A DNA stretch of 42,750 bases from a virus. Taxonomy: Duplodnaviria > Heunggongvirae > Uroviricota > Caudoviricetes. Numbering within the stretch: the first letter of the stretch is position 1; every line of letters starts with the position of its first letter. This document shows, in pieces, positions 1,009 to 28,452 of this stretch. The notes beneath the pieces were generated by a model. It had not been told where the DNA came from. It made no database searches and saw nothing but the letters and a program-made list of their open reading frames with translations. The position numbers and the translations under genes are program-made. The DNA lies in IMG/VR virus record IMGVR_UViG_2703718822_000008, positions 1-42,750 of that record; one strand, given 5' to 3'.

Positions 1009-1083
1009 GTCCTCTTAGTTAAATGGATATAACGAGCCCCTCCTAAGGGCTAATTGCAGGTTCGATTCCTGCAGGGGACACCA
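1009..1083 (+). tRNA. argW: tRNA-Arg (anticodon CCU), prophage attachment target
   Basis: 75-nt sequence gtcctcttagttaaatggatataacgagcccctcctaagggctaattgcaggttcgattcctgcaggggacacca; acceptor, D-, anticodon (ctCCTaa loop) and T-arms (ggttcgattcc) recognisable; 3' CCA encoded. Confidence 0.9.
1069..1083 (+). repeat. attL core (3' end of argW), ctgcaggggacacca
   Basis: Exact 15-bp direct repeat with 41047-41061; the flanks on both sides differ. Confidence 0.7.
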
Positions 1084-26279: not shown

Positions 26280-26456
26280 TCATTTCCTCGCGCGATGTCT
26301 TAGCCACCGGATATCCCACAGGTGAGCCGTGTAGTTGAAGGTTTTTACGTCAGATTCTTTTGGGATTGGCTTGGGTTTATTTCTGGAGCGTTTCGTTGGA
26401 AGGTATTTGCAGTTTTCGCAGATGATGTCGGTGATACTTCGTCGCTGTCGTCTCAT
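26280..26456 (-). CDS. ninE: NinE-like protein (58 aa), below the ORF-track threshold
   Basis: Translated by hand: [58 protein letters not shown]; resembles lambda/DLP12 NinE. Confidence 0.7.
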
Positions 26457-27298
26457 GCCGCATCCTCAAAATTAAATCCAAGCTGACATGAAAATGCTTC
26501 ACATGATTCAGAACACGAACCTGAATCATACTGTCGCATTGATGTCATTCTTGAGGCTAACTCATCTCTTGATATATCACTAAACAAGGCAATCAGTGAT
26601 TTAAGTGTATTATTCCCTCGATACATAACCGGTTCCTTTCCTGTTTTTATTTCTGTATCAAGGATGTTGATAAATGCATCTGCAAGTTCTGGCTCATCCA
26701 TGGCTGCCAGCGCAACCTTTTGCATACTTTTTTTTATACAGAAAACACAATTACCAAGATGCTCCTGTATGCCAAGATCAAACTTCTGCCCACTCCACCA
26801 ATCAAGCACATCCTGTTTTTCAAAATCGCTTATATCAGCCAGGTACCGAAAACCATTAGCCCTTTTAAGCCTGTTTGGTTCATCTGTGCGAATGCCAAGC
26901 CATGTGATGTAATTTCCTTTCCCAAACTTTTCCTGACAATATTTGGTGAATGGAACAGACTTCATTCTGTCGGTACAGAACGCACCGCCGATATATGGAT
27001 GTCCGTATTTATTTAACATCCTTTTCCACGGTATAAGATCTGGACCAATATCATTGACACCTATCTCTTCATAACTACTGGCCTTCCCCATTTCTGGATT
27101 AGGTATTACACGAAGGCAATGTAAGTCTATTTTCCAGTTACTGACGATATTTCGGATGAACTCATATGTTTTAGGGTGCTCTGCCCCTGTATCCATGAAA
27201 ACGTAATGCACGTCTTCACCTGCCTGTCGCTTTTGCTCCATTAGCCAGAGCAAATATGCTGACGTCCTGCCACCTGAGAAACTAACGACATTTATCAT
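26453..27298 (-). CDS. PAPS reductase-family (PP-loop ATP pyrophosphatase fold) protein in the NinC position
   Basis: From the ATG at 27298: [17 protein letters not shown]... (SGGxxS PP-loop); ATGA overlap with the upstream Dam gene and with the ninE start. Confidence 0.65.
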
Positions 27299-27822
27299 GC
27301 AGCCCTCCTGACACCCTGCCCGATCGCCATCAATGCCGCTTTGGATACGGTGGTAAACATCCGTCGAGGACTGATGAACGGTCGCCAAATCAGCAGCATG
27401 GAGCCTTTGCTGTTTCCCTTCTTCTCCAGCCCTGTCGATGGTTCGATAAAATTAATCCGTCCATCAGTGATAATGCGAACTTCGTCGACACTCTCCAGAG
27501 CCTTGCTGAACCATCCGACTGACATATCCTCTGGCACAAGCATCACTACCGTCTGTCGCTGTTGTATGCACTGCTCAGCGGCTTTTTCCACCCACGGCCT
27601 GATATTGCTGTACGGTGGGTTATTCCAGATTGCACCGTGGCTTATCCACTCAGAATTGAGCGCGTCGTCGGCCTCAGTTAGCCAGTGAGCACACAGAGCA
27701 TTTTTGTCGCTCGCTGCCGAATCCAGCCAGAATCCAAACTCAATATCCAGTGCATCAAAAAGCCAAAGCGGCGTTTGCCAGCAGTCCTTGTCGTGTGCTG
27801 GCGTATTTGATTTGATAGTCAT
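27295..27822 (-). CDS. Phage-type DNA N6-adenine methyltransferase (Dam family)
   Basis: From the ATG at 27822: MTIKSNTPAHDKDCWQTPLWLFDALDIEFGFWLDSAASDKNA...WNNPPYSN... (NPPY motif IV); 175 aa; ATGA overlap with the ninB stop. Confidence 0.7.
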   Translation of the reverse strand: MTIKSNTPAHDKDCWQTPLWLFDALDIEFGFWLDSAASDKNALCAHWLTEADDALNSEWISHGAIWNNPPYSNIRPWVEKAAEQCIQQRQTVVMLVPEDMSVGWFSKALESVDEVRIITDGRINFIEPSTGLEKKGNSKGSMLLIWRPFISPRRMFTTVSKAALMAIGQGVRRAA

Positions 27823-28259
27823 GCAGCCCGATCTCCCCATCTCGCTTTCCACTCCAGAGCCAGTCTCGCTTCGTCTGACCACTTAACGCCACGCTCTGTA
27901 CCGAATGCCTGTATAAGCTCTAATAGCTCCGCAAATTCGCCTACACGCATCCTGCTGGTTGACTGGCCTATTACCACAAAGCCATTCCCGGAAAGGTTAG
28001 GAACAACATCCTGCTGCTTTAATGCTGCTGTAAAAACGCACTTCCAGCTTTCTGCATCCAGCCAGCGACCATGCCATTCAACCTGACGAGAGACGTCACC
28101 AAGGCAAGCCCAAAGCTTTCGATTCTGGTCTAAGCTGCGGTTGCGTTCCTGAATGGTTACTACGATTGGTTTGGTTGGGTCTGGAAGAATTTGCTGTACC
28201 GCGTGAATAGCGTTTTGCTGATGTGCTGGGGATCGAATTTCAAAGGTTAGTTTTTTCAT
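27819..28259 (-). CDS. ninB: Recombination protein NinB (Orf family)
   Basis: 146 aa MKKLTFEIRSPAHQQNAIHAVQQILPDPTKPIVVTIQERNRSLDQNRKLWACLGDVSRQVEW... essentially identical to recalled lambda NinB. Confidence 0.9.
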   Translation of the reverse strand: MKKLTFEIRSPAHQQNAIHAVQQILPDPTKPIVVTIQERNRSLDQNRKLWACLGDVSRQVEWHGRWLDAESWKCVFTAALKQQDVVPNLSGNGFVVIGQSTSRMRVGEFAELLELIQAFGTERGVKWSDEARLALEWKARWGDRAA

Positions 28260-28452
28260 GACTTCCCTCTCTAACAGATTTCAGGTTATTCCACTCCGTT
28301 ACCGCACTGCGATAATTCGCGGCCGCCACAGCGGCGTGGTTAGCGCAGTAGATTTGGCACCCGTTCTCCATGTCGAATATTGTCGGTGATTTTCCGCATT
28401 TACATTTTTTGGCACGCGGTGCGTCTGAACACATTCCGTTAACGGTGTCCAT
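28240..28452 (-). CDS. Small Cys-rich hypothetical protein
   Basis: 70-aa ORF with six Cys (C..C.C....C....C..YC); SD-like gaggggga upstream; between helicase and ninB. Confidence 0.4.
   Translation of the reverse strand: MDTVNGMCSDAPRAKKCKCGKSPTIFDMENGCQIYCANHAAVAAANYRSAVTEWNNLKSVREGSHEKTNL

What the first reader, a model, noticed from the sequence alone, without database searches (positions are those of the whole stretch)
26453..27822. Translationally coupled Dam-like methyltransferase and PAPS-reductase-family gene inside the nin region
ninB, a Dam-family N6-adenine methyltransferase (NPPY), a PP-loop PAPS-reductase-family protein (SGGRTS) and ninE are joined by overlapping stop/start codons (ATGA at 27819-27822, 27295-27298 and 26453-26456). 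The methylase looks like an insertion into the ninB-ninC-ninE backbone. A PP-loop enzyme tightly coupled to a DNA methylase suggests a DNA-modification or anti-restriction function rather than sulfur assimilation.
Basis: partly seen in the sequence, partly recalled or inferred. Interest (0 to 1): 0.45.

Follow-up and report, generated by a model that had tools for sequence, protein, structure and literature searches.

The report
Phage Dam methylase next to NinC
A prophage carries a GATC DNA methylase gene directly beside a lambda NinC-type ATP-using enzyme; this arrangement is already present in public genomes, but related phages fuse these two proteins into one, which points to DNA modification or evasion of host restriction rather than sulfur metabolism.

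Summary
On the minus strand, ninB, a 175-aa Dam (NPPY), a 281-aa PP-loop protein (SGGRTS) and ninE are joined by ATGA stop/start overlaps.

These overlaps are not special to this pair. Every nin junction in lambda, SE16 and Oslo reads GCnGCATGA.

The Dam is 174/175 identical to VT2-Sakai orf32. The PP-loop protein is a NinC allele, 57% identical to lambda NinC.

dam and ninC are each exact one-gene cassettes that also occur separately: 1540 of 5426 E. coli genomes carry this dam, 28 carry this ninC allele, and 18 of those 28 have dam directly upstream.

The functional reading still gains independent support:
- The NinC protein is 62% identical over 278 aa to the N-terminal half of a Vibrio phage PAPS-Dam fusion implicated in overcoming Dnd restriction.
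- Of the 80 closest viral loci, 17 fuse NinC to a DNA methylase and 13 have one adjacent.
- Fusions involve at least four methylase families.
- NinC keeps an intact PP-loop, lacks CysH hallmarks, and best matches SspD.

Verdict: an ordinary, already sequenced arrangement whose anti-restriction reading is plausible but untested. The mechanism is inferred.

The parts
27819..28259 (-). ninB (Orf recombination mediator), 146 aa. Its stop overlaps the dam start.
   Evidence: PF05772 at 183 bits and phrog_72. 98% nt identity to E. coli 042 ninB.
27295..27822 (-). dam: small phage N6-adenine DNA methyltransferase, 175 aa. It is a one-gene cassette.
   Evidence: PF05869 at 218 bits, TIGR01712 at 264 bits, PADLOC orphan MTase. 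174/175 identical to VT2-Sakai orf32 NP_050531.1. Absent, with exact boundaries, from the E. coli 042 prophage.
27610..27621 (-). Catalytic motif IV, NPPY (Dam residues 68-71).
   Evidence: Read directly from the sequence.
26453..27298 (-). ninC allele: PP-loop ATP-pyrophosphatase-like protein of the PAPS_reduct superfamily, 281 aa. It is a one-gene cassette.
   Evidence: - PF01507 at 35 bits over residues 3-142.
- phrog_33262 at 4e-112.
- 57% identical to lambda NinC.
- 98.9% identical to Salmonella phage SE16 NinC.
- 62% identical to the N-terminal half of the Vibrio phage 44E38.1 p0018 fusion.
- SspD at 2.6e-14.
- Absent, with exact boundaries, from VT2-Sakai.
27260..27283 (-). Intact PP-loop, SFSGGRTS (NinC residues 6-13).
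   Evidence: S6, S8, G9, G10, T12 and S13 are invariant in alignments A1 and A2. The CysH and APS reductase chains aligned there carry SSSFG and SFSGAE instead.
26738..26749 (-). Conserved CxxC (C184, C187) inside the [10 protein letters not shown] motif. C108 (nt 26975..26973) is also invariant.
   Evidence: Invariant columns in A1 and A2. Cysteine positions are listed.
26501..26515 (-). C-terminal CSESC motif (C262, C266) in a low-confidence, probably mobile tail.
   Evidence: C266 is invariant and C262 nearly invariant. Residues 259-261 and 268-281 have pLDDT below 50, and the 261-270 block averages 53.
26280..26456 (-). ninE, 58 aa. Its start overlaps the ninC stop.
   Evidence: PF05322 at 148.6 bits.
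27819..27829 (-). Junction repeat GGGCTGCATGA (ninB end / dam start).
27295..27305 (-). Junction repeat GGGCTGCATGA (dam end / ninC start). With the copy at 27819-27829 it brackets the dam cassette.
26453..26461 (-). Junction GCGGCATGA (ninC end / ninE start). With the GCTGCATGA at 27295-27303 it brackets the ninC cassette.

Best explanation
This is a normal nin region of a P22-like prophage. Two exchangeable one-gene cassettes sit between ninB and ninE: a GATC-type orphan Dam and a lambda NinC-family PP-loop enzyme.

The ATGA junctions (GCnGCATGA) are the generic nin-region joint. They allow coupled translation of the whole operon, and they supply the microhomology by which cassettes are gained and lost.

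**Proposed function (inferred).** The pair acts as an early-expressed DNA-modification and anti-restriction module.
- Dam methylates the phage DNA. This rests on 99% identity to the VT2-Sakai enzyme.
- NinC is not a PAPS reductase. It is an ATP-dependent adenylating enzyme with a conserved cysteine set (C108, C184, C187, C262, C266).
- NinC belongs to the same branch as the sulfur-inserting DNA phosphorothioation enzymes SspD, BrxP and DndC.
- NinC is orthologous to the PAPS domain of the Vibrio phage fusion that let a phage overcome Dnd.

The most likely role for NinC is to modify phage DNA, or to hijack or mimic the host phosphorothioation machinery, so that phosphorothioate-dependent restriction (Dnd, Ssp and related systems) no longer attacks the phage. 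A DNA methylase, the phage's own or the host Dam, may work on the same DNA and possibly provide DNA targeting.

**Shown here:** gene identities, cassette structure, orthology and the fusion and neighbourhood pattern.

**Inferred:** enzymatic activity, the sulfur chemistry, the defence systems targeted, and any physical cooperation with Dam.
For: **Identities**
-.
- Dam is 174/175 identical to VT2-Sakai orf32.
- M.EcoVT2Dam is reported to target GATC (PMC6602927).
- NinC is 57% identical to lambda NinC.

**Link to the Vibrio fusion**
- NinC is 62% identical over 278 aa (E = 6e-121) to the N-terminal half of Vibrio phage 44E38.1 p0018.
- The window Dam is 38% identical to its C-terminal half.
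- Lambda NinC is 59% identical to the same fusion.
- The preprint of Piel et al. reports that moving the two genes specific to these phages, the fusion gene p0018 and the unknown gene p0019, into a sensitive phage gave 1e11 PFU/ml on a Dnd-carrying host.

**Fusions and neighbourhoods**
- Of the 80 best NinC-like IMG/VR loci, 17 are in-frame NinC-methylase fusions: 16 with PF05869 and 1 with D12.
- A further 13 have a methylase gene directly adjacent, in either order.
- Database clusters fuse NinC to PF05869 (39 of the 120 listed), PF02086 (12), PF01555 and PF05063.
- Fusion genes sit in at least three genomic contexts: Erf-SSB-Abc2, after O-like replication genes, and beside Red-like recombinases.

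**Not CysH-like**
- The PP-loop is intact, unlike in the CysH and APS reductase chains.
- CysH and APS reductase models score 17-19 bits against cut-offs of 154-235.
- There is no ECG.. motif.

**SspD-like**
- All 17 family members tested hit SspD and 16 hit BrxP.

**Cassette structure**
-.
Against: - No experiment addresses this locus or any enterobacterial NinC.
- In the Vibrio work the swapped segment also contained a second gene of unknown function, so the effect is not assigned to the PAPS domain alone.
- One later study saw no correlation between a phage PAPS gene and Dnd sensitivity.
- The two genes assort independently. dam is in 1540 E. coli genomes and this ninC allele in 28. Of those 28, 18 have dam upstream and 9 have ninB.
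- 51 of the 80 viral loci have no PF05869 Dam within 4 kb.
- Similarity to SspD, DndC and BrxP covers only the N-terminal ~140 residues, which is the shared PP-loop core.
- No DndA/D/E or SspA/B/C partner is encoded nearby.
Confidence: 0.55

Rival explanations
1. The two cassettes are independent and do not cooperate biochemically. They are neighbours only because the nin region accepts one-gene cassettes at identical junctions. Fusions elsewhere are 'polyvalent' joins of separately acting accessory or anti-defence functions. Dam acts alone, and NinC does something unrelated to methylation.
For: - The generic junction GCnGCATGA is found at all nin joints.
- Each gene is an exact cassette.
- All combinations exist: ninB-dam-ninE is very common, ninB-ninC-ninE occurs in SE16, E. 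coli 042 and lambda, and both genes occur together in 16-18 E. coli genomes and in phage Oslo.
- Dam lies upstream in 18 of 28 genomes with this ninC allele. That is roughly the frequency of dam among all matched nin places, 2192 of 3582. This is a rough comparison.
Against: - Fusion into one polypeptide recurs with at least four unrelated DNA methylase families and in different genomic contexts. This is hard to explain without a shared substrate or process.
- All hosts named for these fusions are Gammaproteobacteria. If these hosts have their own Dam (from general knowledge, not tested here), a ninC without a phage dam is not necessarily without a methylase partner.
Confidence: 0.27
2. NinC is an auxiliary metabolic PAPS reductase that boosts host sulfate assimilation during infection, as database names suggest.
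For: - Pfam PAPS_reduct hit at 35 bits.
- Best Foldseek PDB matches are CysH and APS reductase.
- Public records and several papers annotate it this way.
Against: - Only the first ~70-140 residues align to CysH.
- NCBIfam CysH scores 18.7 bits against a cut-off of 154. APS reductase scores 16.6 against 235.
- The PP-loop is canonical (SGGRTS), whereas the CysH and APS reductase chains carry degenerate loops.
- The C-terminal ECG.. catalytic motif is absent.
- TM-score is only 0.40-0.49.
- It is repeatedly fused to DNA methylases.
- No other sulfur-assimilation gene is in the region.
Confidence: 0.03
3. NinC is a PP-loop enzyme acting on RNA or a small molecule. Candidates are a tRNA thiolase or lysidine-type modifier, or a nucleotide amidotransferase that helps phage translation or nucleotide supply. 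It would not act on DNA.
For: - The conserved cysteines resemble those of [4Fe-4S] tRNA thiolases in kind.
Against: - The fusion partners are DNA methylases of several families, not RNA enzymes.
- The best sequence-profile matches are the DNA phosphorothioation enzymes SspD and BrxP.
- It lies among DNA recombination and replication genes.
Confidence: 0.1

Closest known systems
Lambda NinC (NP_040635.1) and the lambdoid nin region
   Same: - 57% identity over the full length.
- The same PP-loop and cysteine motifs.
- The same place after ninB.
- The same ATGA junctions.
   Different: - This is a different allele, 281 aa against 290 aa. It is 98.9% identical to NinC of the P22-like Salmonella phage SE16.
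- A dam cassette lies between ninB and ninC, and there is no ninD.
- The papers I found give no function for lambda NinC.
Vibrio phage 44E38.1 p0018, 'Dam methyltransferase with PAPS reductase domain' (QZI91755.1; Piel et al. 2022, preprint 10.1101/2021.05.05.442762)
   Same: - It has the same two protein families. The PAPS/NinC part is 62% identical and the PF05869 Dam part 38% identical.
- It is linked experimentally to escape from Dnd.
   Different: - There it is one 479-aa polypeptide in the order NinC-Dam. Here there are two genes in the order dam-ninC.
- The Vibrio Dam motif reads NCPY rather than NPPY.
- The phage backbone and host differ.
VT2-Sakai orf32 (NP_050531.1), taken to be M.EcoVT2Dam, a PF05869/TIGR01712 small phage Dam
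   Same: - 174/175 identical, with the same position after ninB.
- M.EcoVT2Dam is reported as GATC-specific.
   Different: - In VT2-Sakai, dam is followed directly by ninE and there is no ninC.
- That orf32 is the enzyme named M.EcoVT2Dam is my inference. It is the only methylase annotated in the first 24 kb of that record.
Salmonella phage vB_SosS_Oslo gp63-gp67 and 16-18 complete E. coli genomes
   Same: - The same order, ninB-dam-ninC-(ninD)-ninE.
- The E. coli copies are about 98-99% identical across the whole segment.
   Different: Oslo combines dam with the lambda-type ninC allele, which is 57% identical to this one. That shows the arrangement was assembled more than once.
SspD / DndC / BrxP (PP-loop components of DNA phosphorothioation systems)
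   Same: The N-terminal PP-loop domain matches. SspD gives E = 2.6e-14 and is hit by all 17 family members. BrxP is hit by 16 of 17 and DndC by 4-5 of 17.
   Different: - Only ~120 of 277 (SspD) or ~135 of 481 (DndC) profile positions are matched.
- The C-terminal half is specific to NinC.
- No desulfurase, ATPase or DNA-binding partners are encoded alongside.
CysH / APS reductase (assimilatory sulfate reduction)
   Same: The same superfamily fold core.
   Different: NinC has a canonical rather than degenerate PP-loop, has no ECG.. tail motif, and falls far below the family cut-offs.

Membership tests
Lambda NinC family | Full-length sequence homology to lambda NinC | tested here: met
   57% identity over 286 aligned positions, E = 5e-118.
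Lambda NinC family | Location in the nin region downstream of ninB and upstream of ninD/ninE, joined by stop/start overlaps | tested here: met
   The order is ninB-dam-ninC-ninE. The junctions match those of lambda. The dam cassette intervenes.
PF05869 / TIGR01712 phage N6-adenine methyltransferase (M.EcoVT2Dam type) | Profile match above the curated cut-off | tested here: met
   PF05869 scores 218 bits against 28.1. TIGR01712 scores 264.2 bits against 97.05.
PF05869 / TIGR01712 phage N6-adenine methyltransferase (M.EcoVT2Dam type) | Catalytic motif IV, [DNS]PP[YFW] | tested here: met
   NPPY at residues 68-71.
PF05869 / TIGR01712 phage N6-adenine methyltransferase (M.EcoVT2Dam type) | GATC-specific N6-adenine methylation activity | not testable with these tools
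   This rests only on 174/175 identity to VT2-Sakai orf32 and on the literature statement that M.EcoVT2Dam targets GATC.
Assimilatory PAPS/APS reductase (CysH) | Whole-protein match to the CysH or APS reductase equivalog models | tested here: not met
   NF002537 scores 18.7 bits against 154. TIGR02055 scores 16.6 bits against 235.3.
Assimilatory PAPS/APS reductase (CysH) | C-terminal catalytic cysteine in an ECG(L/I)H motif. This feature is from general knowledge of CysH. | tested here: not met
   No ECG.. motif in the 281-aa sequence.
DndC / SspD / BrxP DNA phosphorothioation PP-loop enzymes | PP-loop ATP pyrophosphatase domain similar to the family profile | tested here: met
   SspD at 2.6e-14, BrxP at 6.6e-8, DndC at 4.9e-4. 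All 17 NinC-family members tested hit SspD.
DndC / SspD / BrxP DNA phosphorothioation PP-loop enzymes | Match over the full length of the family profile | tested here: not met
   Only SspD profile positions 3-122 of 277 and DndC positions 30-165 of 481 are covered.
DndC / SspD / BrxP DNA phosphorothioation PP-loop enzymes | Encoded with cysteine desulfurase, ATPase and DNA-binding or nicking partners (DndA/D/E or SspA/B/C) | tested here: not met
   The neighbours are ninB, dam, ninE, ninF, Ant, YbcO, RusA, NinH, Q, DnaB and O-like genes.
DndC / SspD / BrxP DNA phosphorothioation PP-loop enzymes | Iron-sulfur cluster and sulfur insertion into DNA | not testable with these tools
   Five conserved cysteines are present. 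Neither metal binding nor activity can be shown.
Phage PAPS-Dam fusion anti-Dnd protein (Vibrio phage 44E38.1 p0018) | NinC/PAPS domain and PF05869 Dam domain both homologous | tested here: met
   62% identity (E = 6e-121) and 38% identity (E = 1e-31).
Phage PAPS-Dam fusion anti-Dnd protein (Vibrio phage 44E38.1 p0018) | Single polypeptide, with NinC/PAPS at the N-terminus and Dam at the C-terminus | tested here: not met
   Here there are two separate genes in the opposite order, dam then ninC.
Phage PAPS-Dam fusion anti-Dnd protein (Vibrio phage 44E38.1 p0018) | Confers escape from Dnd restriction | not testable with these tools
   Known only for the Vibrio phages, and there it was tested together with a second gene.

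The most novel reading that the evidence does not exclude
The whole lambda NinC family is an ATP- and cysteine-dependent enzyme that acts on DNA together with a DNA methyltransferase, either the phage's own or the host Dam. Lambda NinC itself has no function assigned in the papers found here. The family would either install a so far undescribed sulfur-containing or other modification, or subvert the host phosphorothioation machinery, and so defeat phosphorothioate-based immunity (Dnd, Ssp, Pbe, BREX type 4). The window would then carry the split-gene form of a widespread two-component counter-defence system. The methylase would serve as more than a methylase, for instance as the DNA-targeting module.
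Probability: 0.3. Interest if true: 0.75.

Novelty: new member of a known kind. Interest (0 to 1): 0.42.

Why it matters
PAPS-reductase-like genes are among the commonest 'auxiliary metabolic' annotations in phage and prophage genomes, and they are usually read as sulfur metabolism.

The evidence here says the lambda NinC branch should not be read that way:
- it retains an ATP-pyrophosphatase loop;
- it matches DNA phosphorothioation enzymes best;
- it is repeatedly fused to DNA methylases of several families;
- it is orthologous to the one phage protein tied experimentally to escape from Dnd.

This gives lambda, the best-developed phage genetic system, a directly testable hypothesis for an unexplained gene. 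It also suggests that prophage dam-ninC pairs influence which E. coli and Salmonella strains a temperate phage can enter.

The locus itself is not new. Near-identical copies are already in public genomes.

Tried and rejected
- **Lar-like gene upstream of ninB.** I asked whether the 70-aa Cys-rich ORF at 28240-28452 is a Lar-like restriction-alleviation gene, as annotated at that position in VT2-Sakai. It has no Pfam hit, matches only phrog_6308 (unknown function), and does not align to the VT2-Sakai protein. Rejected.
- **Literature on 'NinC'.** The whole-word search returned nickel catalysts and psychology papers. The three phage papers that mention ninC give no function. The published Piel et al. 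paper is not held, so I used the preprint.
- **Protein search.** The first NinC search timed out. The repeat listed only single-domain proteins in its top 120, which at first suggested that fusions were rare. Searching viral contigs and querying with a fusion protein showed they are common.
- **Chimeric Dam+NinC tblastn against phage records.** Only 8 records have both genes adjacent. Isolated, sequenced phages under-represent the arrangement compared with prophages and IMG/VR.
- **GATC content.** Sites are depleted (97 against an expected 178). This does not discriminate between the explanations.
- **Host PT-system association.** I did not test whether hosts carrying NinC prophages also carry Dnd or Ssp.
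Full report
**What is there.** The window is a P22-like prophage. It lies beside a tRNA-Arg(CCT) gene at 1009-1083 and an integrase-sized ORF. The finding sits in its early-right operon on the minus strand. The surrounding gene order is:
- an O-like replication gene and a DnaB-type helicase;
- a 70-aa ORF of unknown function;
- ninB, dam, a PAPS-reductase-family gene and ninE;
- a NinX-like ORF, ninF and an Ant-type antirepressor;
- YbcO, RusA, NinH and Q.

The four genes of the finding are exactly as described:

| Gene | Coordinates | Length | Notes |
|---|---|---|---|
| ninB | 28259..27819 | 146 aa | |
| dam | 27822..27295 | 175 aa | NPPY at residues 68-71 |
| PP-loop gene | 27298..26453 | 281 aa | SFSGGRTS at residues 6-13 |
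| ninE | 26456..26280 | 58 aa | |

ATGA stop/start overlaps occur at all three joints.

**The overlaps are generic.** I aligned ten nin-region junctions from the window, lambda, Salmonella phage SE16 and Salmonella phage Oslo. All share the invariant GCnGCATGA, in which each gene ends Ala-Ala-stop over the next ATG. Translational coupling therefore joins the whole nin operon. It says nothing specific about dam and the PP-loop gene.

The same junction defines cassette boundaries.
- Against the E. coli 042 prophage (ninB-ninC-ninE, 98-99% identical on both sides), the window has an exact one-gene insertion of dam. It is bracketed by GGGCTGCATGA.
- Against VT2-Sakai (ninB-dam-ninE), the window has an exact one-gene insertion of the PP-loop gene. 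It is bracketed by GCnGCATGA.

Either gene can be called the insertion.

**Gene identities.**
- The Dam is 174/175 identical to VT2-Sakai orf32. That is the only methylase annotated in the first 24 kb of the phage. I take it to be M.EcoVT2Dam, which a methylome paper cites as GATC-specific.
- The PP-loop protein is a NinC allele. It is 57% identical to lambda NinC over the full length and 98.9% identical to NinC of P22-like Salmonella phages, where it directly follows ninB.

**How common the arrangement is.**
- No isolated phage record covers 80% of the ninB-to-ninF segment (window 28300-25700) at high DNA identity.
- Sixteen of 5426 complete E. coli genomes carry ninB-dam-ninC-ninE at about 98% identity, routinely annotated.
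- This dam allele is in 1540 genomes.
- This ninC allele is in 28 genomes. Its upstream neighbour is dam in 18, ninB in 9 and a NUMOD4 gene in 1.
- Phage Oslo has the same order with the lambda-type ninC allele, so the combination arose more than once.

The two genes therefore assort independently. One caveat, from general knowledge: a NinC without a phage dam still meets the host Dam in enterobacteria.

**Is there a functional link?** Independent evidence says probably yes.

*The Vibrio fusion.* The preprint of Piel et al. (Nat Microbiol 2022) describes Vibrio crassostreae podophages with a 479-aa protein that has an N-terminal PAPS-reductase domain and a C-terminal PF05869 Dam domain. Moving this gene, together with one neighbouring gene of unknown function, into a sensitive phage allowed growth on a Dnd-carrying host. 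I retrieved that protein.
- The window NinC is 62% identical to its first 278 residues (E = 6e-121).
- The window Dam is 38% identical to its C-terminal part.
- Lambda NinC is 59% identical to the same N-terminal region.

*Viral contigs.* Among the 80 best NinC-like loci in IMG/VR:

| Arrangement | Loci |
|---|---|
| In-frame NinC-PF05869 fusion (477-575 aa) | 16 |
| NinC-D12 methylase fusion | 1 |
| dam-then-ninC gene pair | 10 |
| ninC-then-dam gene pair | 1 |
| ninC followed by an MT-A70-type methylase, joined by the same ATGA junction | 2 |
| **Total with a methylase fused or adjacent** | **30** |

*Protein database.* In the large protein database, NinC-like domains are fused to several methylase families:
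- PF05869, in 39 of the 120 clusters listed (Serratia, Erwinia, Pectobacterium, Yersinia, Klebsiella, Morganella, Salmonella, Pantoea, Shewanella);
- PF02086, in 12 clusters;
- PF01555 and PF05063, in one cluster each;
- possibly a C5 methylase.

*Genomic context.* Fusion genes lie in at least three different contexts.

Fusion with unrelated methylase families argues that NinC and a DNA methylase act on the same substrate or in the same process.

**What kind of enzyme NinC is.**
- It is not a CysH. CysH and APS reductase models are missed by an order of magnitude.
- Only the first ~70 residues align to solved reductases.
- Those reductases have degenerate loops (SSSFG, SFSGAE), whereas NinC has the canonical SGGRTS.
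- There is no ECG.. tail motif.
- The best named profile is SspD, hit by all 17 family members. BrxP is hit by 16 of 17 and DndC by 4-5 of 17. In each case only the PP-loop core is matched.
- The family has invariant C108, C184, C187 and C266, and nearly invariant C262. The last two lie in a low-confidence C-terminal tail.
- The predicted fold (pLDDT 85.7) matches PP-loop enzymes in general. These include the [4Fe-4S] sulfur transferases LarE, NcsA and TtuA. No closer solved relative appeared.

From this I infer an ATP-dependent adenylating enzyme, probably with a metal or sulfur centre.

**Conclusion.** The locus is an ordinary nin region that combines two known cassettes. Near-identical copies already exist in public genomes, so the finding is not new as sequence.

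The most likely role is evasion of phosphorothioate-dependent restriction, or another DNA modification carried out alongside methylation.

The main rival is that the two cassettes act independently and are merely co-located or co-fused accessory functions. A sulfur-assimilation role is unlikely.

The papers found here assign no function to lambda NinC or to other phage PAPS-reductase homologues; one review of Thermus phages calls them in need of investigation. A 2025 catalogue of 268 anti-defence proteins does not mention PAPS-type proteins. A 2026 paper lists phage PAPS reductases as putative anti-defence genes and cites only Piel et al..

Noticed in passing
window 1-42750: GATC is strongly under-represented: 97 sites against 177.6 +/- 11.2 expected from dinucleotide-preserving shuffles. 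Yet the prophage encodes its own GATC-type Dam.
   Followed up: partly
window 27819-27829, 27295-27305, 26453-26461; L007, L001, L006 junctions: Every nin-region gene junction reads GCnGCATGA (Ala-Ala-stop over ATG). dam and ninC are each exact one-gene cassettes bracketed by this 9-12 bp repeat, which looks like the recombination joint for cassette exchange.
   Followed up: yes
window 27153-27298 (5' end of ninC): Divergent ninC alleles share a near-identical 5' end. 126 E. coli genomes match only part of the gene; the partial matches listed cover only nt 1-113 or 1-146. The first 37 aa are identical to the Oslo allele. This suggests a recombination breakpoint inside ninC.
   Followed up: partly
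P0137, P0172, P0179, P0187, P0177; L034, L025, L027: NinC-like domains are fused or adjacent to D12, N6_N4 and MT-A70 DNA methylases, and possibly a C5 methylase. One 824-aa protein has a ~470-aa N-terminal extension with no Pfam hit in my scan; the database's precomputed annotation lists PF27430 and PF27432 for it.
   Followed up: partly
window 28240-28452 (-): A 70-aa cysteine-rich ORF overlaps the ninB start by 20 nt. It has no Pfam hit, matches only phrog_6308 (unknown function), and is unrelated to the Lar-like protein annotated at the same position in VT2-Sakai.
   Followed up: yes
L005:3007-4446 and L045: The Dam domain of the Vibrio-type PAPS-Dam fusions has NCPY instead of the canonical NPPY in motif IV. 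The enterobacterial fusions checked keep NPPY, apart from one with NPPH.
   Followed up: no
window 1009-1083 and 1209-2402: tRNA-Arg(CCT) lies next to an integrase-sized ORF, probably the prophage attachment site. The structural genes (portal- and terminase-sized ORFs) suggest a P22-like phage.
   Followed up: no
H255 (E. coli B7A chromosome, 2621635-2621747): E. coli B7A carries a prophage with a PAPS-reductase gene next to a phage Dam, with another ninC allele. From memory, B7A is a model strain for Dnd phosphorothioation. I did not check this.
   Followed up: no
L037:3505-3831: In one lineage the NinC-Dam fusion gene lies just downstream of an Abc2 anti-RecBCD gene, after Erf and SSB, so it is in a counter-defence neighbourhood.
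   Followed up: partly
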